Assembly: GCA_001661245.1 (NCBI GenBank)
Contig: KV454011.1
Coordinates: 1,652,041 to 1,716,040, forward strand
Origin: Pachysolen tannophilus NRRL Y-2460
Taxonomy: Eukaryota
Direction: 5' to 3'
Length of the DNA stretch: 64,000 nucleotides
This document shows positions 12,152-63,560 of the stretch, piece by piece. A model generated the notes under the pieces. It saw nothing but the letters and a program-made list of their open reading frames with translations, searched no databases and was not told the DNA's origin. Within the stretch, counting starts at the first letter, position 1. Each line of letters opens with the position of its first letter. The translations under genes were made by a program, and so were the position numbers.

Positions 12152-14590
12152 ATGACATTGCCCAATGAGTTAGTGCAACTCTATGGCTGGGATTTTGAAG
12201 CTCAAGTGCCCGAATTTGAAGTTGGTTTTGAGTTCGAGCTGTTAACAAACGAAAGATGGAAGTTAGAACCTACGGCGGCTAATTTTTTACATGGAATTGT
12301 GTCATTTCGCAGTAAACTTTGTGGTGGATTTGATGGAAATACACTAAAAGTATGTCATTTAAAGTCGTTAGATAATTTTTTATTGGATGTTTCGGAGTTG
12401 TATTTAAATGAAGATGATCATCTTGGTGATTTTACCGATTATTGCCTAAAGTCATCGATTTTTGAAATTGAATATTCTACTGAGAACAATGATTACGAAG
12501 TTTCTAATAGACTATCTGAAGAGGTTTTGAAAGAAGCTATAAAGTTGGATGATGACACAAGAATGTTTATGAGCCGCTGTTTGAAACCCGTCAAAAGAAA
12601 GCATGATTTAAAGTGTATATTTCCTGAAAAGGACGAGTTACTCAATTGTGATGAATTGATATTTTCCGGAACAGAGTATGATGGTGATTTATTTGATCAA
12701 TTAAAGCTTGATCTTAAAAGCCGCAAATTTGACATGAAGGTGCAAGATATAGATGAAACTTACAAATTTGATTCTTTTATTCCTTATGGTGAAAACTTTC
12801 TAGACGATATCAAAGGATACACAATACCGTCATTATCGTTAGAGCCAATCATTTTCAAAGATTTCAAACTTGATGCATTTATAGTTGACACTACCATTGA
12901 TGGTGTTGGGGCCGATTTTCCCCAATCTATCGTGCCGCTGTTAATTGAAAATGTTTGGAGAATAGAAAGTTCTTGTGAAAGTAATATTTCACACAGTGGA
13001 GATTTTCTTGAGGAAGAATTGAATGAAATTGCAATTAGTTATAAATTAAATCTCCCAAAGATGAAACAAAATGAACCCAACAATTCAGTTGCTGAAAGTT
13101 GTATAGACGGATTCCCAATTTGGATTATGCCCCAATTAACATTACTAAATATGGATTGGGTTTTCTTTAATAATGTTAATCCAGACAGCCTTTTGAATGA
13201 AATACTTGATAGTGATTTTTCAAAACATATAACCTTAATTGGTAACTTAGAATCAGATCATCATTGTCTGAGTAAAAATAAAGTAAAATTGTTCAAAATC
13301 AAACAAAAGCTATTAGAACAAGATGATGTTGGATATTTTGAAAGTGTAAACTCAATCAAACATGTTTCACGGAATGATTCGATACACAATAGAGATACTT
13401 TTATGCTACTGTCAAAAGAATTATTACAATATGAGCCTGAATCAAGCGAAAGGCTTTCTGAAAAGCCGCTGACGTTATCTTTTTCAACTGAAATTGTGTC
13501 AACTCCGGGATCTATGGTTGTTGAAAACTCTACAATAGCTCTTGAGCTACTGACCTCGCCAGAGCTTCCTGATACTACGTTTTTAAGACCAAATAAAAAA
13601 AGAAAGAAAAATAAGAGAAAACTGCTGCATACCAACAACTCCATTATTGAAATTGATGACTTGATTAAACAAAAATCTATGAAAAAAATTGATAGAATGG
13701 AATTTGCCAACGGAACAAACGTGACAAATTTTCCAATGAAAGATATCTTGACATTTTCAAGTAATGCATTAGACATTGACATTACCAGACATGAAATTCC
13801 ACCTGACTTTGACTTCGATACCTTACCCACTGTTGACGATGAACCTGAAAATAGTAGGAAGTCTAAGCTACTAAATTATCAATTTGAATCTCAGCGGCTA
13901 ATAATTTTGAACTTGTCGTTGCGAAACAAAGATAAACTGCTATTTTCATTATTATCGGAACTCGGCCAGTTACTGAACTCTAACTTACTAGTTTATGAGC
14001 AAGAGTTCAGTGAAGATCATAATGATTTTGACATATATCTTTCTTCTAATTTAGGTCTTATGATAATTAAAGACATAGAATTAACTCAATATAATGTATA
14101 TACAGGAAACTTACTTGTCGTGGAAGAATTAATGCAAACAGCAATGCAATCTAAGAATATTATCATATTGATCCAAATTAACTCAAAGCACGGATCTGTT
14201 GATTTTGAAGTGATAAGCAAATTCCAGAAAATATTGTCACTATTAAACATTGACTCAATAATATCTGAAGATGATGCTATCATTGAAGTAATATTCAATT
14301 TTATCAAGGAATATGGTTATCAAAGTAATTTCAGAGATATTAATTTTGAAGGGAAAAAAATCCTTCAATTGGACCTTGCCCATGCTAAGGATATAATGTT
14401 CCTCAAAGAATGTAAAATAAATAATCCAATCTTAATAATAGATATCTTGAAAAAAATAAATTATGATTTAAAGGATTTTATAACAATGGATTTCGGAAAG
14501 AGAGAGGCAACATTTAGTGATATCATGAGTCATGACCTATTAATATGGGTGGATAAAATATTTAACACAACATGGTCATTTGAAGAATAA
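12152..14590 (+). CDS. ZIP2: Probable meiotic ZMM protein Zip2 (SHOC1-like, C-terminal XPF/ERCC4-like domain)
   Basis: C-terminal IILN...VYEQEF...DFDIYLSSNLGLMII...LTQY...GNLL...KNIIILIQ resembles the recalled Zip2 XPF-like domain. URS1 element inside the 5' coding region. Confidence 0.55.
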   Translation: MTLPNELVQLYGWDFEAQVPEFEVGFEFELLTNERWKLEPTAANFLHGIVSFRSKLCGGFDGNTLKVCHLKSLDNFLLDVSELYLNEDDHLGDFTDYCLKSSIFEIEYSTENNDYEVSNRLSEEVLKEAIKLDDDTRMFMSRCLKPVKRKHDLKCIFPEKDELLNCDELIFSGTEYDGDLFDQLKLDLKSRKFDMKVQDIDETYKFDSFIPYGENFLDDIKGYTIPSLSLEPIIFKDFKLDAFIVDTTIDGVGADFPQSIVPLLIENVWRIESSCESNISHSGDFLEEELNEIAISYKLNLPKMKQNEPNNSVAESCIDGFPIWIMPQLTLLNMDWVFFNNVNPDSLLNEILDSDFSKHITLIGNLESDHHCLSKNKVKLFKIKQKLLEQDDVGYFESVNSIKHVSRNDSIHNRDTFMLLSKELLQYEPESSERLSEKPLTLSFSTEIVSTPGSMVVENSTIALELLTSPELPDTTFLRPNKKRKKNKRKLLHTNNSIIEIDDLIKQKSMKKIDRMEFANGTNVTNFPMKDILTFSSNALDIDITRHEIPPDFDFDTLPTVDDEPENSRKSKLLNYQFESQRLIILNLSLRNKDKLLFSLLSELGQLLNSNLLVYEQEFSEDHNDFDIYLSSNLGLMIIKDIELTQYNVYTGNLLVVEELMQTAMQSKNIIILIQINSKHGSVDFEVISKFQKILSLLNIDSIISEDDAIIEVIFNFIKEYGYQSNFRDINFEGKKILQLDLAHAKDIMFLKECKINNPILIIDILKKINYDLKDFITMDFGKREATFSDIMSHDLLIWVDKIFNTTWSFEE
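12273..12282 (+). promoter_or_regulatory. URS1 (Ume6) element CGGCGGCTAA inside the ZIP2-like ORF
   Basis: Match to the GGCGGCTA core about 120 bp after the ATG, encoded by ACG GCG GCT in an AT-rich gene. Confidence 0.6.
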
Positions 14591-27772: not shown

Positions 27773-29224
27773 ATGACAATTGACTCTAATTCTTCTATTC
27801 AGAAAAATGAAAAAAAGATCAGAGGGGTTGATAAGATTATTGAGAAGCAAGTAGCGACAGGTGAAACTTTCAAAGTAACAGACAATAAGCTTAAACTTGA
27901 TCCTAGTTTAATTCCTCAGCTTCGTTCTGGTACTTATTCTGGGTATCATCATGTAACTTGGTATGTTTCCAATGCTAAGCAAGCTGCTTATTATTTTATG
28001 AGTATTTTTGGATTCAAGCCTTATGCTTATAGAGGGTTAGAGACTGGTTCAAGAGCTGTTGTTTGTTATGTTGTGAAGAATGGGGATGCGATTTTTGAAT
28101 TTGCAAGTCCGTTGAAATCAGATTTTACCGAGACCGATAATGGAACAACAATTTCTCCTGAAGGTAATGGTAATTCTAATGCCAATGCCAAAGGTAATTC
28201 GTTATCATCAATGTCTAAGGTTAGTATGCATACTCAGAAGGAAATGAACAATTTGGTTATGGAAATGAATAATTTTATCCATAAACATGGTGACGGTGTG
28301 AAAGATGTTGCCTTTGCTGTTCAGAATGCAGAAGAAGTTTATAGGATATCTATTAAAGGTGGAGCAAAATCAATAATGAGACCAACTTTATATAAAGATT
28401 ATGATTTAAGATCATATGTAAAGATGGCAAAAGTTTCAGTATTTGGTGATACGGTCCATACTTTGGTTGAAAAAGGTGATAATTATAGTAGATTTTTACC
28501 AGAATATGAAATGGTTAATAATATCAATTTAAATGATAAAGAAAGTTTTAAAATAAGATTCCCAATTGTTGCTATTGAAAATTTTTTAAAACTTCCACCA
28601 GTTCATTTTTTAAAAATTGATCATTGTGTTCAAAATCAAGGTTGGAATGAAATGATTCCATCATGTGAATCATATGCTAAAACTTTTGGTTTCCATCAAT
28701 TTTGGTCTGTTGATGAAAAAGAAGTTTCAACAGAATTTTCAGCATTAAGATCAATTGTAATGTCATCACCAGATGATCAAATTAAAATGCCTATTAATGA
28801 ACCTGCTAAGGGACGTTGTAAATCTCAAATTGAAGAATTTTTAGATTATTATGAAGGTCCTGGTGTTCAACATATTGCAATTTTAACAGATAATATTATT
28901 GAAACAGTTTCTGCAATGAGACAAAGAGGTGCAGAATTTATTGATGTTCCTGAAAAATATTATACAAATTTATTACCTAGAATAATGGCTTCACCTGTAG
29001 AAATAAAAGAAGATTTGGGAATTGTTAAAAAATTAGGAATCTTGGTAGATTTTGATGATAAAGGTTATTTATTACAATTATTTACTAAACCTTTAGGTGT
29101 AAGACCGACAATTTTCATTGAAGTTATTCAAAGAAGAAATCATAATGGTTTTGGTGCTGGTAATTTTAAAGCACTTTTTGAAACTTTAGAAGGATTACAA
29201 AATGAAAGAGGTAACTTACATTGA
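27773..29224 (+). CDS. HPD: 4-hydroxyphenylpyruvate dioxygenase
   Basis: HGDGVKDVAF, IDHCVQN, SQIEEFLDYYEGPGVQHIA, YLLQLFTKP, FIEVIQR...GFGAGNFKALFE; first ATG at 27773. Confidence 0.95.
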   Translation: MTIDSNSSIQKNEKKIRGVDKIIEKQVATGETFKVTDNKLKLDPSLIPQLRSGTYSGYHHVTWYVSNAKQAAYYFMSIFGFKPYAYRGLETGSRAVVCYVVKNGDAIFEFASPLKSDFTETDNGTTISPEGNGNSNANAKGNSLSSMSKVSMHTQKEMNNLVMEMNNFIHKHGDGVKDVAFAVQNAEEVYRISIKGGAKSIMRPTLYKDYDLRSYVKMAKVSVFGDTVHTLVEKGDNYSRFLPEYEMVNNINLNDKESFKIRFPIVAIENFLKLPPVHFLKIDHCVQNQGWNEMIPSCESYAKTFGFHQFWSVDEKEVSTEFSALRSIVMSSPDDQIKMPINEPAKGRCKSQIEEFLDYYEGPGVQHIAILTDNIIETVSAMRQRGAEFIDVPEKYYTNLLPRIMASPVEIKEDLGIVKKLGILVDFDDKGYLLQLFTKPLGVRPTIFIEVIQRRNHNGFGAGNFKALFETLEGLQNERGNLH

Positions 29225-29247
29225 AAAAAAAAAAAAAAAAACAAAAA

Positions 29248-29649
29248 NNNNNNNNNNNNNNNNNNNNNNNNNNNNNNNNNNNNNNNNNNNNNNNNNNNNN
29301 NNNNNNNNNNNNNNNNNNNNNNNNNNNNNNNNNNNNNNNNNNNNNNNNNNNNNNNNNNNNNNNNNNNNNNNNNNNNNNNNNNNNNNNNNNNNNNNNNNNN
29401 NNNNNNNNNNNNNNNNNNNNNNNNNNNNNNNNNNNNNNNNNNNNNNNNNNNNNNNNNNNNNNNNNNNNNNNNNNNNNNNNNNNNNNNNNNNNNNNNNNNN
29501 NNNNNNNNNNNNNNNNNNNNNNNNNNNNNNNNNNNNNNNNNNNNNNNNNNNNNNNNNNNNNNNNNNNNNNNNNNNNNNNNNNNNNNNNNNNNNNNNNNNN
29601 NNNNNNNNNNNNNNNNNNNNNNNNNNNNNNNNNNNNNNNNNNNNNNNNN

Positions 29650-29734
<85 letters not shown>

Positions 29735-29758
29735 TATATNTNTTNTNTNTNTNTNTTN

Positions 29759-29799
<41 letters not shown>
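29248..29799. repeat. Assembly gap (29248-29649) followed by (TA)n, (TAA)n and poly(T) microsatellites
   Basis: Directly visible. Confidence 0.95.
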
Positions 29800-29803
<4 letters not shown>

Positions 29804-31460: not shown

Positions 31461-31922
31461 ATGTCTTCAATAGCTATAGACACAGAAGCACTTGAAGCTT
31501 CTTCAAGTACTACCTCTACTAATGTTTATTATACTGGATTACAAAGAGGAACGTCTGTTGAGGATATTTCAAGCACAGAAGATGCAACAAGCATTGCTAC
31601 TCCAACATCCGATGTTATTTATATCTATTCTTCATTAGAAGAAGATACAACAGCATTAACTACAGACATACAAAGCACAAGTGCAGTGGAGTCATCGGAT
31701 TTGTCATCAATAACATCAGATACTTCTTCAATAGCAGATGCAAGTGCAAGCGAGAAAACTTCAGATTCGTCTTCTGCTCAAGCTGGTTCCAGCACTATAG
31801 ATTCATCATCAAGTTCTGGATCGGGAAGAAATTATAATATTCCTTCAGAAAACGGATGTAGAAAATTCAAATTGTTACTTTCAGGAATAGTTGGGTTAAG
31901 TATAGTCTTAGTTGGACTATAA
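31461..31922 (+). CDS. Small S/T/D-rich protein with C-terminal hydrophobic (GPI-signal-like or tail-anchor) segment
   Basis: 153 aa, Ser/Thr-rich, ends in SENG + basic spacer + LLLSGIVGLSIVLVGL; no N-terminal signal peptide. Confidence 0.65.
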   Translation: MSSIAIDTEALEASSSTTSTNVYYTGLQRGTSVEDISSTEDATSIATPTSDVIYIYSSLEEDTTALTTDIQSTSAVESSDLSSITSDTSSIADASASEKTSDSSSAQAGSSTIDSSSSSGSGRNYNIPSENGCRKFKLLLSGIVGLSIVLVGL

Positions 31923-42815: not shown

Positions 42816-43514
42816 ATGGGGAATTTTATGATTTGTTTGTCTCACTTTTGTGAAATACATGGGCCCTCTATAGTGATGTGTACCCAATCATTTAAACTGG
42901 ATAATATCAATAAATTAGATAACAATGCTTTTTTATCTTCTTCAGCACCATCATCAGCAACTTGTTTGTCATGCCAACTTATATTACCGACATCATCGCC
43001 TTCAAACCTGATAAGAACTATTGATGAAGAATCTCATTTAATTTTCATATCAACACAATATCCATCTTCACAATCAAGATATCGTGCTTTAAGACAAATA
43101 GTCATGAAAGCGCTTTCCGTCGAGACAACTCATGATGGATTGAACCCTATAATGTTTGGTGATTCAACTCTGGGATATTCAATAACAATGGTTTTCAAGA
43201 TCAAAGACTCAACTGCAAGAGGTTCAGAGAGAAAATATGCATTGATAATAACTGCAGAAGACGAAAGTGAATTGGTTCATTCATGGAGTTTAGTAGTAGA
43301 AAATTTAAGAGAATTTATTAAATTAATTAAGGACAGAATAACCGAATTAGAATTAAGTAAAACAATGAATAATACAGAACTAATGGATAATAATGAAAGA
43401 TTTTATAGAAGAAGTTTACCAAAATCAAAGAATTTAACAGAGTTATTGGAAGATAAAAAATTATTCATAAAGATACACCTTTGGGCATCAAATTTATTGT
43501 GCAATTTAAATTAA
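42816..43514 (+). CDS. LST7: Folliculin homologue Lst7
   Basis: LSHFCEIHGP...CTQ, C.SC, FISTQYP, FGD, D.TARG.ERKYAL. Confidence 0.92.
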   Translation: MGNFMICLSHFCEIHGPSIVMCTQSFKLDNINKLDNNAFLSSSAPSSATCLSCQLILPTSSPSNLIRTIDEESHLIFISTQYPSSQSRYRALRQIVMKALSVETTHDGLNPIMFGDSTLGYSITMVFKIKDSTARGSERKYALIITAEDESELVHSWSLVVENLREFIKLIKDRITELELSKTMNNTELMDNNERFYRRSLPKSKNLTELLEDKKLFIKIHLWASNLLCNLN

Positions 43515-43790: not shown

Positions 43791-43872
43791 TGAATGAGAC
43801 GAGATTCGAACTCGCGCCTCTTGCGAGATCTGAACTTGAGTCAGACGCCTTAGACCCCTCGGCCACTCATCC
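43791..43872 (-). tRNA. tRNA-Leu, anticodon CAA, intronless, 82 nt
   Basis: Minus strand: acceptor GGATGAG/CTCATTC-A, anticodon arm TCTGA-CTCAAGT-TCAGA, long variable arm CTC-GCAA-GAG, T loop GTTCGAATC; oligo-T Pol III terminators follow. Confidence 0.96.
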
Positions 43873-44364: not shown

Positions 44365-46338
44365 TCATCTCTTCCATGACCCCAAAAAATGACTGGCTAA
44401 ATCTTTTGCTGAAAATCTTTTAGGATTAGAGCTAGAATTATTATTACTCAAGTCGTCGTCGCTGGAATTAAGTTTGAAATCAGTATTACCATTTCTGACG
44501 CTATTATCATTATTGGTAAACTTACTGCCATTGGAACTAGTTATCATGGATCCTCCACTTCCACTTATTGACCTTTGTAAACTTTCACCTAAAATATTTT
44601 GATGATGGTGTTGGTGCTGATGTTGCGATTGAGGCTGTTGAGCACCATCGAGATTACTATTCTCATTGTTTTTAATGATTTTCTGATCATCGCATGTTTC
44701 TTTATTGTTGGTAGCATCTTCATCTTCGTCTTCACTATCAAACAAAAAAGAAGTTTTAATTTGGCCAGAAACAGAGGTATTAGATTGATATGGGGGTAAT
44801 GGTTGTTGTGGATTAGTTATATTGATCCCACTTACTTTCCCACTCGGTGAACTATGGATTGTGTCTGCATTAGCGTTAGAGATGAATGATGATGATACAG
44901 CCGAATTGGTCCCCGTGTCAACTGATTGATCACTGATGGTTGTGGTACTACCGTTCTTACTATCATTTGCATTCGGAGTGGTAACATAATTATCAGCAGC
45001 CCTTAATGTAGCGTTTGAAGCCGAAGGGGTGATAGATAATGGTGATGGTACTATATCGATTGGTTTACTCACTGCTTTTGTTGATGTCACTGGGCTATGA
45101 ACATCTTCAATATGAATTAATGAGCCCAAATCTAAATTATCTGGCAAGTCATACACTTCTAAATCGTTATTTTGTGTAACTATATCGTTTGCTGAGGTAT
45201 CATTTGTATAGATTGAGTTATAATTATAATTGTAATGATAATCATAATTTCTATTTGTATTAACATTGTGAGAAATTCTGTTTGGATATGGGTTTTCATA
45301 ATATGAGGAATAATAAGTAGGTTCTTCAACTTTATTATCTATATCTTCATCTTCATCATCAGTAGAATTATACTTCAATTTGGCATTCGGTAATAGTTCA
45401 ATAATGTTGTAAAAGGGCTTACTGATTTTGTGAGAAGCAGAAGAAATTAATGTATTTTCATCACTACTGCTATCATTATGTGTTGTAGTAGTACTATCAT
45501 TACTATTTGCCTTTGCTAATTTTTGTTGTTGCAAATGTTTCATATTGGCCATAGAGTTTGATTTAACATTTAAGAAAAATCCGCCATCCTCATCATCCTC
45601 ATCATCTTCTTCTTCATCAACATTTTCAGAATCATTATAAAGTCCACCTTCATCATCAGTGTTGTAACCACCTTGGTAAACCACTTTTCTACCTCCTTGA
45701 TCATCTTCGTAATCAAAATCTTCTTCATCGGATGAGGGAATATCAACAGCAATGCATTGCTCCACTTTTTCATTAAAACGAATGTGACGATCTTTTTTCG
45801 GCTGGGAATTACTTGGCGTTGAAAAAGATGACTTTTTAGTTATTGCACCAATGGAATCTGAACTTTCTAAATTCATATTTGAAATTGTTGGTGAACTCAA
45901 CAGGTTTTCGTCATCAGTTCTATTGGCACTGTTATTAAGATACGGGCTATTACCATTGCTATTATTATTATTATTATTATTTTGATTGTTAGTGTAGTTA
46001 TTGGATTTATTATTTTCCTTAACAACTGGTGGCGATTGGCGGTGTGTGCGTTGGTGGTAATGGCTTGGAGTAGTAGCCTCCAAGATGGGGCTTCCAGTTT
46101 TGTGATGGCTATTATGATGATGAGCTTGAATTATTGATAACTTCATGAATTCTGCTTGTGATAACATCATCTCAGCAGCAGTTCTCTTTTTCAATATTGG
46201 CTTAGGTCCTTTTTTATTATTAGGTGTCTTGCACTTATTTTTACTTGTGCCATACTTATCATTAACAACGCTGTTCTCATTGTTGTTGTTATCATCATTA
46301 ATATCATTGTCATCATCATTATAATCATTATCATCATC

Positions 46339-46373
<35 letters not shown>

Positions 46374-47130
46374 TATTATTATTATGGTTATTATTTTTAT
46401 TATTGTTATTATTATTATTATTTTTACCACCGCTAAGCAGCGGTGATGCCGAACTTGCTTTAATATTTTTCAAATCTTTCTTTGGAGATAATTCATCAGT
46501 TAAAAAATCCGAAGCACCAGGCTCTTTATATAACGGACCATACAACCAAGTGACTTCACTATCTTTTAACCAGTTAACAGATTCTGGAGACACGGTTTTT
46601 AATTTATACTTTGCCTGTGCCCAAGTTCTCCATGAAGCATTTTCCAATCTTGCACTATTTGCAACATCTTTTCTTTTCATAACAATATACTTCCAAGATT
46701 TCGAGATATCAGATTCTTTCCAATCATGAGATAAATAATCAACATGGGATTGTGGTTCATAAATCAAATCGTTATCATCATGAGGAAGTAATTCTGGTGA
46801 AACCAATACCGAAGATGAAGAACTTGAAGACGTTGCCACCGAAACTGGAGACTGCACATTATCCTCCCGATCACCCACCAGCACTTGAGATTGCTGTTGA
46901 CGTCCTTGACTGCTCTGTGACTGGTAATCACCTTCATCATCATCTTCATCACTACTATCTGAATTATACAAAATCGACCGACTCCTAAATTGCAGCGGTC
47001 TATTATTTCTTTGGTTAAAATTTTTACTATTGTTATTACTACTGTTTGATGTATCAATCTTGGGCAACCGATGTTTCAACTCTGATGAAGATGGATTATA
47101 ATAATTTTGGTTTTTTAATCCATTTTTCAT
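44365..47130 (-). CDS. REG1: Reg1, Glc7/PP1 regulatory subunit, lacking its conserved N-terminal ~100 aa
   Basis: HVDYLSHDWKESDISKSWKY...RLENASWRTWA...VTWLYGP domain, KPILKKRT, PP1-docking RHIRF. The KRTRS(M/L)GLL block is missing from this ORF. Confidence 0.92.
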
Positions 47131-47618
47131 TTAATTTTTGTTTTTTTTTTTATTTTTTTTGACTGGTTTCTTTTCTTTTACTTTTTGCTTGTTAACTTTT
47201 TTTTTTCTTTTTTAAATTTTTTTTGTATTTGTTCTCTCTTTAAAAAGAAAAGACAGTTTGATTATATTATTATTATCGAATTCATCATCAACTGTCAAAA
47301 CATATATCTAAATGCCGTCGTCGTATAAGAATCTAGCAGAGGTATTTCAAGGAGGTGCTACTACTTCGCAACACGTTGAAGCTAAAGATGATGATCATTT
47401 TGAGAATACTACTTTTAGATTGAAAAGAACTAGATCCTTGGGTTTGTTGGATGATTTCATTGCACCTACCCAAAAATTGATTGATGAAGATTTTGTTTCT
47501 GATGAGACTGTGAAGAAGATAAATAAATCTGTTTCTGATCTGAATTTAACCGCCCTGCAACCCAATGATGGGAATAATGATAATGTTAATAATTATACTC
47601 CAATTTTGATCAATGAAA
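47124..47618. other. Inverted 495-bp segment carrying the REG1 5' leader and first 102 codons
   Basis: Re-inverting it fuses the two REG1 parts in frame and regenerates a 9-bp inverted repeat ATTTTCATT/AATGAAAAT at the ends. Confidence 0.85.
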
Positions 47619-47629
47619 TAAAACGATGA
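47312..47629 (+). CDS. REG1: Detached N-terminal fragment of Reg1 (105-aa ORF, opposite strand)
   Basis: VEAKDDDHFENTTFRLKRTRSLGLLDDFIAPTQKLI matches the recalled S. cerevisiae Reg1 N-terminal block VQAKNDDDFHKSTFNLKRTRSMGLLDEYIDPTKKLL. Confidence 0.85.
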   Translation: MPSSYKNLAEVFQGGATTSQHVEAKDDDHFENTTFRLKRTRSLGLLDDFIAPTQKLIDEDFVSDETVKKINKSVSDLNLTALQPNDGNNDNVNNYTPILINEIKR

Positions 47630-48349
47630 TAAATATAAAAATGGTATAACTAATTAACAAATAAAAATAAAAATAAAAACAACTTTATATTTAATTATAA
47701 TAACTTACTTTACTCTTTAACTCACTCACTTATTTTATTTTTTTCTTGATAAATGTTATTATTACTTTATTCTGCCTTTTAGTTTAGGTTAAAAGATAAT
47801 TTAATGGACTTTGGTCGTGGTGTACACGACCCGTTTTATGTATGTAATTTTTGTTGAAGTTTCTCCGCCTTACGCCTTACCAGCCTCCAGAAAATTATTA
47901 TTATTGCTCGATACGGATACACACAGAGAAAGAAAGAGAGAGAGAGAGTAGAAAGAGAGAAAGAAAGAAATATTAGATATCAGATTTTCGAATTAAATTT
48001 ACGACTAACTCAAAGATTTGTTAATGAATTTTTTTCTTATTTTTATTTATTGAAGGAAAACCCCATGTAGGGAAACAAAACAACAAGAATTAATATTATT
48101 TTACCGTTACGTTTAGCAGAAACAGTAGCACATGTGGTTTAGGTTCTTGTTACTTTTATTTATTATTTGTTCCATTCTATATATAGAGAAAAGTAAAATA
48201 GTTTTTCCGGAGTTAAATTCTCTTCGCGCGCGCGCGGATTTACTTTAAAATTTCTTTTTCAATTTTTTTCATTTTAGTTTATTTTATTTTTTTTGTCCAA
48301 GTATACTATACTATACTTACTTACTTGGAAGTGAAAAAAAATATCTGGT

Positions 48350-50557
48350 TTATTCTTCTGCGGATCCATCTGATTCTTCTTCTGCTTCTGCTAACCATTC
48401 TATCCATTTGCTTGCGACTTTTCTTGTATTTTCGTCCTTGCCGGCGTAGCCCTCTTGATTCCACCATTTTAAGATATTGACTTCATCTAGGATGTCATTA
48501 TCGTATAAATCATTTAAAGCTAATGTAAATATGGTGGGTCCATTATTATTTGGTAATTTGGAACATAATGATTCCAAAATATTTAACAAGTCGACTTGTT
48601 CTTCATCTTCAAATACTTGTCTTTTAAATAATTGCCCCCATTTACCAAAAATCTTGTGTACCGAATCCTTTACACCTAAAGTTTGAGTATTAATAAAATG
48701 TTCAATCCTTTGTAATAATGCAGTGCAAGTAGCAAGTCTGACATCATGATAAGTTACATTCATTGACATTCTTAAAGTATTTAATTCTAGTAAAGCGGTA
48801 TCCAAATCATGGTTATTTTCCATTGCTCTTTCCACTGTGGCAATTGCTTCCTTATTGAAGTCTTCCTCATCATCTTCTTCACCATCTGTATTATTATTAT
48901 AATCATGTTCTGCATCAGTTGCTGTAGCATGACTTGCAGAAGAATATGTTCTTCTCTTTTTGCGGCGATTAGGCATCGATGAAACAATTGAAGTATCTGA
49001 AAGATATAATTCATCCAATTTATAAACAAGACCATGATAATGCTTAGAAGAAGAAGAAACCTCATCATCATCGTAATCTCCATATTCGGATTCAGAATCA
49101 TACAGAAACCCAATACCATTTTCACCAACAATAGCAGGATCATTAACTGCACCTTCATCAACTTCAACAATATTTTCTTTTTCTTCTGCAGCTCTTTTTG
49201 CTTGAATATCCTGATAAAATTCATCATCACTAGATAATGAATCTCCAATATAAGATGAATCTGAAAGGTGTTTTACAGGTCTTTCAACAATTCTTGTATT
49301 TTCCAGAACAATCACATTATCACCTATTACAACATTGAAACCAATTACAGACCCAGAATTTAATTTTACATTTTGATTTATAACCGAATTAGATGCAACT
49401 ATAGAATGCTCAATCTGACAATTGTCCTTAATAATTGAATTATCCCAAATATATGAATTTTTAATAATAACATTAGTTCCAATTTGACAATTTCTTCCAA
49501 TAACCGAGTTTTCAACTTGACTCAGATCACCAATAAATGAATTGGATCCAATAACAACACATGACCCAATTTTACAAGACTGTGAAAGTCTAATATCCTT
49601 TTCTTTATAAATATGTTTCGATTCATATGTATACGATTGATCTTCTAAAAGATTTGAATCGGGTGCAATTGGATAACACCATCTTTCTAAAATATCCTGA
49701 GAAATTGCATCATATGTTTGCCAACTTTCAACTCTTGCTGCATAGTCTTCATTTGTAATATAAGCATATATTGTTTTTTTTAAAAGGTCAGAAGATAATG
49801 TACCACGTACAAAATCTCTTCTTAAATATTGATAATCAAAATTCTCCTGAAAAATCACAGGAACTAATGGAGAACAAATATCAACATGACAATCAATTAA
49901 ATCGTTTCTAATAACAAATTCATCAACATCTTCCAATAAGTCAGGATCCACTGAAATCGAAGCTTTTAAACCATTAATCGATGGAATATCTTGATAGTAG
50001 AGACATCTATCTGTTTTCTTATCTAATATAAAAGTTGAAGGTACCGATTGAGACCTTGTTCTATGTAAAGGAGATGCCTGGGTTAAAACCATTGTAACTA
50101 TATGGTCCTTATCAATTAAACGCCTTTGTCTATGTGCACTTAAGACTTCATCAAATTGTATATTGGTAACAACATCCCCTGAAACCAATAAGAAGTCTCC
50201 AGTTATTAACCCTCTATTATCTAAATCTCTCATTGCATCTCCAACAGACCTAGATTCTAATGACATTATAGTATTTATTTTAAAAGGTGAGCCGGCTTGA
50301 TTCCATTTTGAACCATCAATATACGTTTGAACCTTATCTGCATGAGAACAACACATCAAATAAACCTCATCAACACCAGCTTTAGCTAAAAACTCCAACG
50401 TATACTCAATCAATGGGACATTACACAAGGGAAGAAGACATCTTGGCTCAACTGAAGTTAAAGGCATAAACTTTGTCTCGTACGAATCAGTTAGCACAAT
50501 AGCCTGAAGTCTCTCATCTTGTACAATCTCTTTCTGCTTCTTGTTTTTGGGCAGCAT
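48350..50557 (-). CDS. GCD6: eIF2B epsilon subunit
   Basis: LQAIVLTDSYETKFMPLT...PRCLLPL, left-handed beta-helix repeats, LELNTLRMSMNV, W2 domain WIEWLAEAEEES. Confidence 0.96.
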   Translation of the reverse strand: MLPKNKKQKEIVQDERLQAIVLTDSYETKFMPLTSVEPRCLLPLCNVPLIEYTLEFLAKAGVDEVYLMCCSHADKVQTYIDGSKWNQAGSPFKINTIMSLESRSVGDAMRDLDNRGLITGDFLLVSGDVVTNIQFDEVLSAHRQRRLIDKDHIVTMVLTQASPLHRTRSQSVPSTFILDKKTDRCLYYQDIPSINGLKASISVDPDLLEDVDEFVIRNDLIDCHVDICSPLVPVIFQENFDYQYLRRDFVRGTLSSDLLKKTIYAYITNEDYAARVESWQTYDAISQDILERWCYPIAPDSNLLEDQSYTYESKHIYKEKDIRLSQSCKIGSCVVIGSNSFIGDLSQVENSVIGRNCQIGTNVIIKNSYIWDNSIIKDNCQIEHSIVASNSVINQNVKLNSGSVIGFNVVIGDNVIVLENTRIVERPVKHLSDSSYIGDSLSSDDEFYQDIQAKRAAEEKENIVEVDEGAVNDPAIVGENGIGFLYDSESEYGDYDDDEVSSSSKHYHGLVYKLDELYLSDTSIVSSMPNRRKKRRTYSSASHATATDAEHDYNNNTDGEEDDEEDFNKEAIATVERAMENNHDLDTALLELNTLRMSMNVTYHDVRLATCTALLQRIEHFINTQTLGVKDSVHKIFGKWGQLFKRQVFEDEEQVDLLNILESLCSKLPNNNGPTIFTLALNDLYDNDILDEVNILKWWNQEGYAGKDENTRKVASKWIEWLAEAEEESDGSAEE

Positions 50558-61766: not shown

Positions 61767-63560
61767 ATGTATTCAAAATTAATAAAACTCATAGCAGGTG
61801 CCTTATTCACATCAAAAATTGCAGGAGCTTTCAATGCTACATCAAATGAAAATGTTGTTTTATATTGGGGTCAAAATTCAGCTGGGTCGCAACAAGATTT
61901 AGCTTATTATTGTGAAAGTGATTCAGTAGATATCGTGGTTTTAGCTTTCATGACAGAGTTCCCAGGTACTGACGATGTACCAACCTTGAATTTTGCTTCT
62001 GCTTGCTCAGATACTTTCAGTGATGGTCTATTGGATTGTACCCAAATTGCTTCTGATATCGAGACATGCCAATCTCTTGGAAAAAAAGTCTTATTATCTT
62101 TGGGTGGTGAAGCTGGGTCATACGGTTTTAGCTCAGACTCTGAAGCTGAAACATTTGCTGATACCTTATGGAACATGTTTGGGGAAGGATCAGCAGATGA
62201 AAGACCATTTGGAACTTCAGTTGTCGATGGTTTTGATTTTGATATTGAAAACAATAACCAAACAGGTTACGTTGCTTTGGCCAATAAATTGAGAACTTAT
62301 TATTCTACTGGATCAAAAGACTATTACATTTCTGCTGCTCCACAATGTGTTTATCCAGACGCCAGTGTTGGTGACCTTCTTAGTGGAGCTGATGTCGATT
62401 TTGCTTTCATTCAATTCTACAATAATGACTGTGATTTAGATAAGGCTGATTACAACTGGGACACTTGGGCCAACTATGCTTCCACTGTTTCACCAAATTC
62501 AGATATAAAGCTTTTCGTTGGTTTACCAGCTTCTTCAAGTGCAGCAACAACTGGTTATATCTCAGATCTTGACACTATAAAAGAAAAGATTGAGGCTATT
62601 GGCTCAAATTCAAACTTTGGTGGTATTATGCTTTGGGATGCGTCTCAAGGTTTTGCAAATGAAATTTCAAGTGGAGAAAACTATGTTGAAGCTATGAAAT
62701 CAATTTTAACGGACGTTTATGGAGCAAGCAGTACTGCTTCATCTACAAGTTCTTCATCAACAGCTTCATCTACCAGTTCTTCATCATCAGCTTCATCATC
62801 GGCTTCATCAACATCGACTACTCTTCAAGCAGCTGTTACCACACAAAGTTCATCTTCATCTTCCTCTTCTTCCTCAGCATTAAATACATTCTCATCATCT
62901 AGCGAGGAAAGTACCTTTGTTCCAACAACTTTTTCAACTTTGACCTCAAGTGCTGAAAGTACACAAAGCCCTTCGACATTGACAACTCAAAGTCCAAATG
63001 CCCCATTTGCCCAAACTTCAACTGAATCCAGTATTATTTCAAACAGCACAGCAAGCTTTAGCTTTCCTAATCTTCCTAATACTGTCCCAACTTTCAACCC
63101 AAACGCAGATAAATCAGAAACCGCTCCTGGGCCAAATTTCACAGATGCCCCATCTTCATCATCCACTACAGAAGCTAATACAGCACCTAATACAGTAGCT
63201 ACTACATTGGCTACTACATTAGCCACTACATTGGCAACAACTTCAACATCTTCGGCTACCTCTTCTGCTAGTTCTTCAACTGCCTCTGGATACACCGACT
63301 GCTCATCACTTTCTGGTGCGAAAGAAGCTAAATGTATGAATAGCAATTTCAAAAAAGGCTTATTCTTAGGATCAGCAGACTCATGTGAAGAAGGACAATA
63401 TGCTTGTTCAGCTAGTGGACAAATTGCTCAATGTAACTGGGGAAAATGGGCGTTAACTACATGTGCTTCTGGAACTACTTGTTATGCATTTTCTTCTTCT
63501 GAACTAGTTGTCATTGGATGCAATTATTCATATGAAGAGAGTCAATATGAAAAGAAATGA
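61767..63560 (+). CDS. CTS1: Secreted GH18 class III endochitinase with S/T-rich linker and Cys-rich chitin-binding (CBM19-like) tail
   Basis: Signal peptide from ATG 61767, YWGQNS, LLSLGG, catalytic DGFDFDIE, SAAPQC.YPD, FIQFYNN, GIMLWD; C-terminal C.EGQYACS...C.WGKW...C..GTTC. Confidence 0.93.
   Translation: MYSKLIKLIAGALFTSKIAGAFNATSNENVVLYWGQNSAGSQQDLAYYCESDSVDIVVLAFMTEFPGTDDVPTLNFASACSDTFSDGLLDCTQIASDIETCQSLGKKVLLSLGGEAGSYGFSSDSEAETFADTLWNMFGEGSADERPFGTSVVDGFDFDIENNNQTGYVALANKLRTYYSTGSKDYYISAAPQCVYPDASVGDLLSGADVDFAFIQFYNNDCDLDKADYNWDTWANYASTVSPNSDIKLFVGLPASSSAATTGYISDLDTIKEKIEAIGSNSNFGGIMLWDASQGFANEISSGENYVEAMKSILTDVYGASSTASSTSSSSTASSTSSSSSASSSASSTSTTLQAAVTTQSSSSSSSSSSALNTFSSSSEESTFVPTTFSTLTSSAESTQSPSTLTTQSPNAPFAQTSTESSIISNSTASFSFPNLPNTVPTFNPNADKSETAPGPNFTDAPSSSSTTEANTAPNTVATTLATTLATTLATTSTSSATSSASSSTASGYTDCSSLSGAKEAKCMNSNFKKGLFLGSADSCEEGQYACSASGQIAQCNWGKWALTTCASGTTCYAFSSSELVVIGCNYSYEESQYEKK

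What the first reader, a model, noticed from the sequence alone, without database searches (positions are those of the whole stretch)
47100..47640. REG1 is split by a clean ~495-bp inversion bounded by a 9-bp inverted repeat
Seen: the Reg1 body is on the minus strand (47130-44365), while the conserved Reg1 N-terminus is a plus-strand ORF (47312-47629) pointing away from it. Reverse-complementing 47124-47618 in place, with no base added or lost, joins ...ATC AAT GAA A|AT GGA TTA AAA AAC... into one ORF of 102+919 = 1021 aa, about the size of S. cerevisiae Reg1. The rebuilt allele has a perfect 9-bp inverted repeat (ATTTTCATT ... AATGAAAAT) at the breakpoints, and its upstream junction is continuous T-rich leader. 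Known: Reg1-Glc7 dephosphorylates Snf1 and is central to glucose repression. Inference: this is either a recent microhomology-mediated inversion, a reversible flip between a full-length and a truncated allele, or a local misassembly. There is no N gap nearby.
Basis: partly seen in the sequence, partly recalled or inferred. Interest (0 to 1): 0.9.

Follow-up and report, generated by a model that had tools for sequence, protein, structure and literature searches.

The report
REG1 gene split by 495-bp inversion
In this yeast assembly the glucose-repression regulator gene REG1 is cut in two by a flipped 495-base block, and the tools here could not tell a real one-off mutation from an assembly error.

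Summary
A 921-aa Reg1 body lies on the minus strand (44365-47130). A 105-aa ORF lies on the plus strand (47312-47629). This ORF matches the N-termini of 80 Reg1 homologues, 79 of which carry PF08550. Reverse-complementing 47124-47618 in a script gives one 1021-aa ORF, collinear across the junction with the closest relative, P0002.

The restored allele has a perfect 9-bp inverted repeat at the breakpoints. That is rarer than chance: 0.13% of all positions, 0.8-0.9% of AT-matched ones. The repeat axis sits 1 nt off the inversion axis.

Public annotation already lists both pieces as separate proteins on one 2.5-Mb scaffold. The organism reads CUG as Ala.

I could not settle real versus artefact. 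Read laying failed, no whole genome is held, and the protein collection holds no second copy of this genome.

Odds:
- Real, unprogrammed inversion: about 0.5.
- Assembly error: about 0.4.
- Reversible switch: about 0.03. Nothing supports it: the repeat is tiny, shrinks to 7 bp in the present allele, and no recombinase gene lies nearby.

The parts
44365..47130 (-). Reg1 body ORF, 921 aa: M-K plus 919 residues of the ancestral protein. It is publicly annotated as its own protein (P0081).
46615..46698 (-). PF08550 (GATA_AreA / DUF1752) domain, body residues 145-172. The next in-frame Met after the junction ATG is residue 151, inside this domain.
   Evidence: E 1.7e-11
45775..45789 (-). RHIRF, the RVxF-type PP1 (Glc7) docking motif, body residues 448-452. 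The S. cerevisiae counterpart is RHIHF.
   Evidence: for position; passages of PMC12520357 for RHIHF
47124..47618 (.). Inverted block of 495 bp: 188 bp of 5' leader plus the first 102 codons and one extra base (307 bp). The breakpoints can slide inward by up to 3 nt.
47122..47132 (.). Left junction, ATTTTTCATTT. It carries the ATG (47130-47128, minus strand) that now opens the body ORF. The restored allele reads ATTTTCATT here.
47610..47619 (.). Right junction, TCAATGAAAT. The restored allele reads AATGAAAAT at 47611-47619.
47131..47311 (.). 181-bp spacer between the two divergent start codons, 58% T on the + strand. It is the native proximal leader or core promoter, carried along with the block.
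47312..47629 (+). Reg1 N-terminal ORF, 105 aa: 102 native residues, then I-K-R and a stop read from beyond the junction. It is publicly annotated as its own protein (P0260).
47348..47461 (+). Conserved N-terminal block QGGATTSQHV..FRLKRTRSLGLLDDFI, residues 13-50.
47619..48349 (-). Native upstream region of REG1, running up to the 3' end of the eIF2B-epsilon gene. It is now separated from the body by the flipped block.
   Evidence: no tRNA or Rfam match here

Best explanation
The DNA that was sequenced really carries a one-off, unprogrammed two-break inversion of 495 bp at the 5' end of REG1.

Inferred steps:
- The exchange took place at a 3-nt TTT/AAA microhomology inside a 9-bp inverted repeat, with the two arms paired 1 nt out of register.
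- A single reciprocal exchange in that register loses and gains no base, and turns 4T/4A into the observed 5T/3A.

Shown in the sequence:
- The first 102 codons and 188 bp of leader now point away from the rest of the gene.
- The rest of the gene keeps the PF08550 domain and the RHIRF phosphatase-docking motif.
- It opens with an ATG supplied by the flipped repeat arm.

Expected consequence, not shown: a Reg1 lacking its conserved N-terminal block, or no Reg1 if the body is not transcribed. That would mean weakened Glc7-Reg1 action on Snf1 and partial relief of glucose repression.
For: 1. The plus-strand ORF matches residues 1-70 of Reg1 homologues. There were 80 hits, 79 with PF08550. All 25 subjects printed were collinear.
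2. The flip restores a 1021-aa ORF. Blocks on both sides of the junction (..ETVKKINKS.. and ..LKHRLPKI....SILYNSDSS..) align in order to the closest relative, P0002.
3. A 9-bp perfect inverted repeat at the breakpoints is uncommon: 77 of 61,429 positions, and 29 of 3,481 and 286 of 32,567 AT-matched positions. Assemblers have no known reason to break at a 9-bp repeat (my inference).
4. No N lies within 17 kb. Where this assembly is unsure it writes N, as at 29248-29758.
5. The window is otherwise sound: 22 of 24 other ORFs of 150 aa or more gave Pfam matches, and none is split.
6. REG1 is a frequent target of spontaneous loss-of-function mutations in S. cerevisiae screens, including promoter and start-codon mutants (passages of PMC12520357).
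Against: - No read or second assembly was seen, so both junctions rest on one assembly.
- Both pieces are perfectly intact, and the flip restores the gene to the base. A flipped block in an assembly would look exactly the same.
- The public assembly of the species I infer this to be is scaffold-level, with contig N50 in the 10^4-bp class and about 2% N (passages of PMC13232491).
- The repeat is 1 nt out of register, so it is not a textbook repeat-mediated exchange.
- At 0.8-0.9%, the AT-matched repeat probability is suggestive, not overwhelming.
- Known yeast template-switch inversions have spacers of 2-5 bp, against about 480 bp here (passages of PMC8604942).
Confidence: 0.5

Rival explanations
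1. Assembly or finishing artefact. The living strain has an intact 1021-aa REG1, and a roughly 495-bp piece was placed in the wrong orientation during scaffolding or gap closure.
For: - The flip is exact to the base and both ORF pieces are undamaged, as expected from a flipped block.
- The assembly is a draft with gaps and ambiguous bases elsewhere in the window. The public assembly of the inferred species is scaffold-level.
- Loss of the conserved N-terminus of a central regulator in a type strain is unlikely a priori.
- The finding was picked from a very large scan for oddness, which enriches for artefacts.
Against: - No gap or N lies beside the block.
- A wrongly oriented piece should not end at a 9-bp inverted repeat more often than chance, which is 0.13-0.9%.
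- Neighbouring genes are intact.
- Consensus across both junctions normally needs reads that span them (my inference).
Confidence: 0.4
2. Old, fixed inversion. The species lives with a split Reg1, and both the 105-aa N-terminal peptide and the 921-aa body are expressed from the shared 181-bp spacer and kept by selection.
For: - Both ORFs are intact, and each is bounded by stops directly before its ATG.
- The junction supplies an in-frame ATG, without which the next Met would fall inside PF08550.
- Both are annotated as genes.
Against: - In 79 of 80 homologues the N-terminal block and PF08550 sit in one polypeptide, including the closest relative, P0002.
- Base-perfect restorability argues for a recent event.
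- The in-frame ATG has a 1-in-3 chance.
- No expression data could be obtained (one search listed no RNA holder).
Confidence: 0.07
3. Reversible switch. Cells flip the block back and forth between a full-length and a truncated REG1.
For: Only by analogy. The inferred species does have an inducible flip/flop inversion at its mating-type locus (passages of PMC6692504). Short repeat-spacer inversions in yeast can recur and revert (passages of PMC8604942).
Against: - The mating-type flip uses 2-kb repeats. Here the repeat is 9 bp, 1 nt out of register, and 7 bp in the present allele.
- Such repeats are everywhere: 51 pairs in 1 kb.
- None of the 24 other long ORFs scanned in the window, nor the adjacent eIF2B-epsilon gene, is a recombinase.
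- Only one orientation is on record.
Confidence: 0.03

Closest known systems
Reg1/Hex2, the Glc7 (PP1) regulatory subunit of S. cerevisiae and its fungal orthologues
   Same: - PF08550/DUF1752 domain.
- RVxF-type motif: RHIRF here, RHIHF in S. cerevisiae (passages of PMC12520357).
- Conserved N-terminal block.
- Conserved C-terminal tail shared with P0002.
   Different: The gene is in two pieces on opposite strands. In 79 of 80 homologues found, the N-terminal block and PF08550 are in one protein.
Template-switch inversion of inverted-repeat spacers in S. cerevisiae coding genes (Abraham & Hazkani-Covo 2021, PMC8604942; passages read)
   Same: A short perfect inverted repeat of 9 bp or more flanks a segment that is inverted in place inside a yeast gene.
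   Different: Here the spacer is about 480 bp, the arms end up 1 nt out of register, and the gene is broken rather than changed by a few residues.
Flip/flop mating-type inversion of Pachysolen tannophilus (Krassowski et al. 2019, PMC6692504; passages read)
   Same: An in-place chromosomal inversion in a CUG-Ala clade yeast, probably the same species.
   Different: That one inverts 8 kb between 2-kb repeats, is inducible by nitrogen depletion, and is reversible by homologous recombination. None of these features is present or shown here.
Misoriented small contig in a scaffolded draft assembly
   Same: A block reversed exactly in place with intact content.
   Different: Such errors usually sit beside gaps and have no reason to end at an inverted repeat. 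Here there is no N within 17 kb and a 9-bp repeat lies at the ends.

Membership tests
Reg1/Hex2 PP1 regulatory subunit | PF08550 (DUF1752 / GATA_AreA) domain | tested here: met
   E 1.7e-11, 44.2 bits against a cut-off of 20.9, body residues 145-172
Reg1/Hex2 PP1 regulatory subunit | RVxF-type Glc7 docking motif | tested here: met
   RHIRF at body residues 448-452. The S. cerevisiae motif is RHIHF (passages of PMC12520357). Binding was not tested.
Reg1/Hex2 PP1 regulatory subunit | Conserved N-terminal block in the same polypeptide | tested here: not met
   The block is present but on the opposite strand as a separate 105-aa ORF. It joins the body only after the in-silico flip.
Programmed invertible switch (flip/flop type) | Long, identical inverted repeats that survive the inversion | tested here: not met
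   9 bp in the restored allele, 7 bp perfect in the present one, axis offset 1 nt. The mating-type system uses 2 kb.
Programmed invertible switch (flip/flop type) | Both orientations found in one population | not testable with these tools
   Read laying failed. Only one assembly was reachable.
Template-switch repeat-spacer inversion | Perfect arms of 9 bp or more at the ends of the inverted segment | tested here: met
   Chance is 0.13% overall and 0.8-0.9% AT-matched.
Template-switch repeat-spacer inversion | Short spacer and arms kept in register | tested here: not met
   Spacer 47131-47610 is 480 bp, with a 1-nt register shift. Reported cases are 2-5 bp.
Assembly misorientation | Reads or a second assembly show the other orientation | not testable with these tools
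   Searches failed. No whole genome is held. The papers on the two assemblies are not held.
Assembly misorientation | Gaps or ambiguous bases beside the block | tested here: not met
   The nearest N is at 29758.

The most novel reading that the evidence does not exclude
Both orientations coexist in cultures of this yeast. The 495-bp block would then act as a low-frequency, repeat-guided toggle between full-length and N-terminally truncated Reg1, giving a heritable, stochastic way to loosen glucose repression in a species already known to invert its mating-type locus on a nutritional cue.
Probability: 0.03. Interest if true: 0.8.

Novelty: new member of a known kind. Interest (0 to 1): 0.3.

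Why it matters
If the inversion is real, the reference strain of a xylose- and glycerol-fermenting yeast carries a damaged allele of the main brake on Snf1/AMPK. That would colour every physiological study of carbon-source control done with the strain. It would also be an unusually long example of a short-repeat-associated inversion in a yeast gene.

If it is an artefact, two public gene models (105 aa and 921 aa) are wrong and should be merged into one 1021-aa REG1. Either way the fix is cheap: one read mapping or one PCR.

Tried and rejected
- **Read evidence.** One search listed 7 runs, of which 5 hold 0.92 of the sampled words (four from one sample, one from another study). No RNA holder was listed.
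- **Whole genome.** None is held.
- **Independent copy among proteins.**
  - Table-11 exact look-ups found nothing, because the record reads CUG as Ala.
  - Table-26 look-ups found both pieces and 3 of the 4 control genes asked, each with 1 member on 1 contig.
  - The fourth control, 61767-63557, was not in the collection.
  - The longer, near and shorter searches gave no other protein above 88% identity to either piece.
  - So no second assembly is represented.
- **Metagenome scan.** An exact 40-nt piece of the block gave 0 matches.
- **Earlier scan notes.** There were none on this genome or sequence.
- **Literature.**
  - No paper holds both the species name and REG1.
  - A search for long-read assemblies of the species listed nothing useful.
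  - The supplement of PMC4937558, which might list a junction-spanning peptide, is not readable here.
  - The two assembly papers are not held.
  - PMC4937304 had nothing on the Reg1 N-terminus.
- **Other explanations rejected.**
  - A duplicated block elsewhere in the window: only low-complexity T-run matches were found.
  - A tRNA or known RNA gene at the breakpoints: none.
  - In-register flips about the repeat's own axis, 47123-47618 or 47124-47619, both run into a stop (worked out by hand).

Full report
**What is in the sequence**

One search lists a 921-aa ORF on the minus strand (44365..47130) and a 105-aa ORF on the plus strand (47312..47629). The two point away from each other across a 181-bp T-rich spacer. 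In one search, each ATG is directly preceded by an in-frame TAA, so both ORFs are maximal.

Pfam places PF08550 (GATA_AreA, formerly DUF1752) at residues 145-172 of the long ORF (E 1.7e-11). It finds nothing in the short one. The long ORF also carries RHIRF at residues 448-452. This is the counterpart of the RHIHF Glc7-docking motif of S. cerevisiae Reg1 (passages of PMC12520357).

Neighbours:
- A folliculin/Lst7-like ORF (42816-43514).
- tRNA-Leu(CAA) at 43791-43872.
- An eIF2B-epsilon gene at 48350-50557.

**Is the short ORF a Reg1 N-terminus?**

Yes. A search among longer proteins returned 80 hits at E <= 0.001 out of 213 candidates. Of these, 79 carry PF08550; the exception, P0029, is a 202-aa truncated form.

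In a BLASTP of both pieces against those 80, all 25 top subjects that I printed aligned the short ORF to their first residues and the long ORF downstream, in order. In the alignment, the block QGGATTSQHV..FRLKRTRSLGLLDDFI (residues 13-50) is shared by 10 of the 12 homologues aligned. P0141 lacks it, and P0084 starts inside it.

**The flip**

Reverse-complementing 47124-47618 in a script, with no base added or lost, gives a single 1021-aa ORF that reads ..PILINE|NGLKNQ.. across the junction.

The closest relative, P0002 (736 aa), has conserved blocks on both sides of the junction in the same order..ETVNKINQS.. and then ..LKHRLPKI....SILYKSDSS... The junction falls in a variable linker between them. 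The intact arrangement is therefore ancestral.

**Fine structure of the breakpoints**

- The restored allele has a perfect 9-bp inverted repeat, ATTTTCATT at 47122-47130 and AATGAAAAT at 47611-47619.
- Its axis is 1 nt off the axis of the inversion. The present allele therefore reads 5 T at the left junction and 3 A at the right, and keeps only a 7-bp perfect repeat.
- Working from the printed sequences, the breakpoints can slide by 3 nt (TTT/AAA).
- One reciprocal exchange between arms paired 1 nt out of register explains the exact conservation of length.
- The same shift puts the ATG of the flipped arm (47130-47128) in frame with the body. Without it, the next in-frame Met is residue 151, inside PF08550. 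That has a 1-in-3 chance, and I give it little weight.

**Is the repeat more than chance?**

I scanned every position of the window at the same span and allowed axis offsets of up to 3 nt.
- A repeat of 9 bp or more touching both breakpoints occurs at 77 of 61,429 positions, or 0.13%.
- Restricted to positions as AT-rich as the real ones, it occurs at 29 of 3,481 (0.8%).
- Pooled over spans of 300-700 bp, it occurs at 286 of 32,567 (0.9%).

The association is real but not overwhelming. Repeats of this size are common in this AT-rich DNA: 51 pairs in 1 kb, in a window of 30.9% G+C.

**Organism and annotation**

The collection's copy of the long ORF (P0081) differs from my table-11 translation only at the four CTG codons, which it reads as Ala. 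That is NCBI table 26, the CUG-Ala clade code. The clade comprises Pachysolen, Peterozyma and Nakazawaea according to passages of PMC6692504.

Both pieces are public, annotated proteins (P0260, 105 aa; P0081, 921 aa) on one 2,514,465-bp scaffold. A paper's table gives 2.51 Mb as the longest scaffold of the public Pachysolen tannophilus assembly, with contig N50 in the 10^4-bp class and about 2% N (passages of PMC13232491). I take that species as the likely source.

The split is therefore already in public data, filed as two genes. I found no paper that mentions it: one search for the species name with REG1 gave 0 papers.

**Real or artefact?**

This is the crux, and I could not settle it.
- No whole genome is held.
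- The protein collection holds each piece, and three control genes, only once on one contig.
- No other near-identical protein turned up at any length.
- An exact metagenome scan found nothing.

For a real event:
- The repeat sits at the breakpoints.
- No N lies within 17 kb, in an assembly that does write N where it is unsure.
- The other genes are intact: 22 of 24 ORFs have Pfam matches and none is split.
- REG1 is easily lost under selection in S. cerevisiae.

For an artefact:
- The flip restores the gene to the base.
- Both pieces are undamaged.
- The assembly is a scaffold-level draft.
- A type strain lacking the conserved N-terminus of a central regulator is unlikely a priori.

I put a real, unprogrammed inversion at about 0.5. 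A further 0.07 goes to an older, fixed split gene, and about 0.4 to an artefact.

**The switch idea**

Nothing supports it.
- The known inducible inversion of this species uses 2-kb repeats around an 8-kb mating-type region.
- Known yeast repeat-spacer inversions by template switching have arms of 9 bp or more but spacers of only 2-5 bp. Here the spacer is about 480 bp and the arms are left shorter after the event.
- No recombinase gene lies among the ORFs scanned in the window.

I give it 0.03.

**Consequence if real (inferred)**

The body keeps PF08550 and the phosphatase-docking motif but loses residues 1-102. It also sits 495 bp further from its upstream region, behind an antisense mini-gene. 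In S. cerevisiae, start-codon mutants of REG1 behave as nulls.

A hypomorph or null is therefore the likely outcome, with raised Snf1 activity on glucose.

Noticed in passing
window 44368-47130 and 47312-47626: The public protein copies read all CTG codons as Ala: 4 in the body and 2 in the N-terminal ORF. The genome therefore uses NCBI table 26 (CUG-Ala clade).
   Followed up: yes
window 29224-29800: A 402-N gap is flanked by a poly-A run, (TA)n, (ATA)n and a T run of about 50. Nine single Ns are sprinkled through the TA/T transition, showing how this assembly marks uncertain low-complexity sequence.
   Followed up: partly
window 43791-43872 (-): A tRNA-Leu(CAA) gene lies about 500 bp downstream of the REG1 stop.
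   Followed up: no
window 12152-14590 (+) and 31461-31922 (+): ORFs of 812 aa and 153 aa with no Pfam family at E <= 1e-5.
   Followed up: no
P0029 (202 aa, from a 2.2-Mb contig of another genome): A Reg1 homologue whose sequence leaves the family consensus inside the PF08550 region and ends soon after. It looks like a frameshift or truncated gene model in that genome.
   Followed up: no
window 47131-47311: On the minus strand, the 181-bp spacer holds three upstream ATGs near its far end (offsets 8, 23, 26). On the plus strand it holds none. This matters for whether the body ORF could be translated from a divergent transcript.
   Followed up: no
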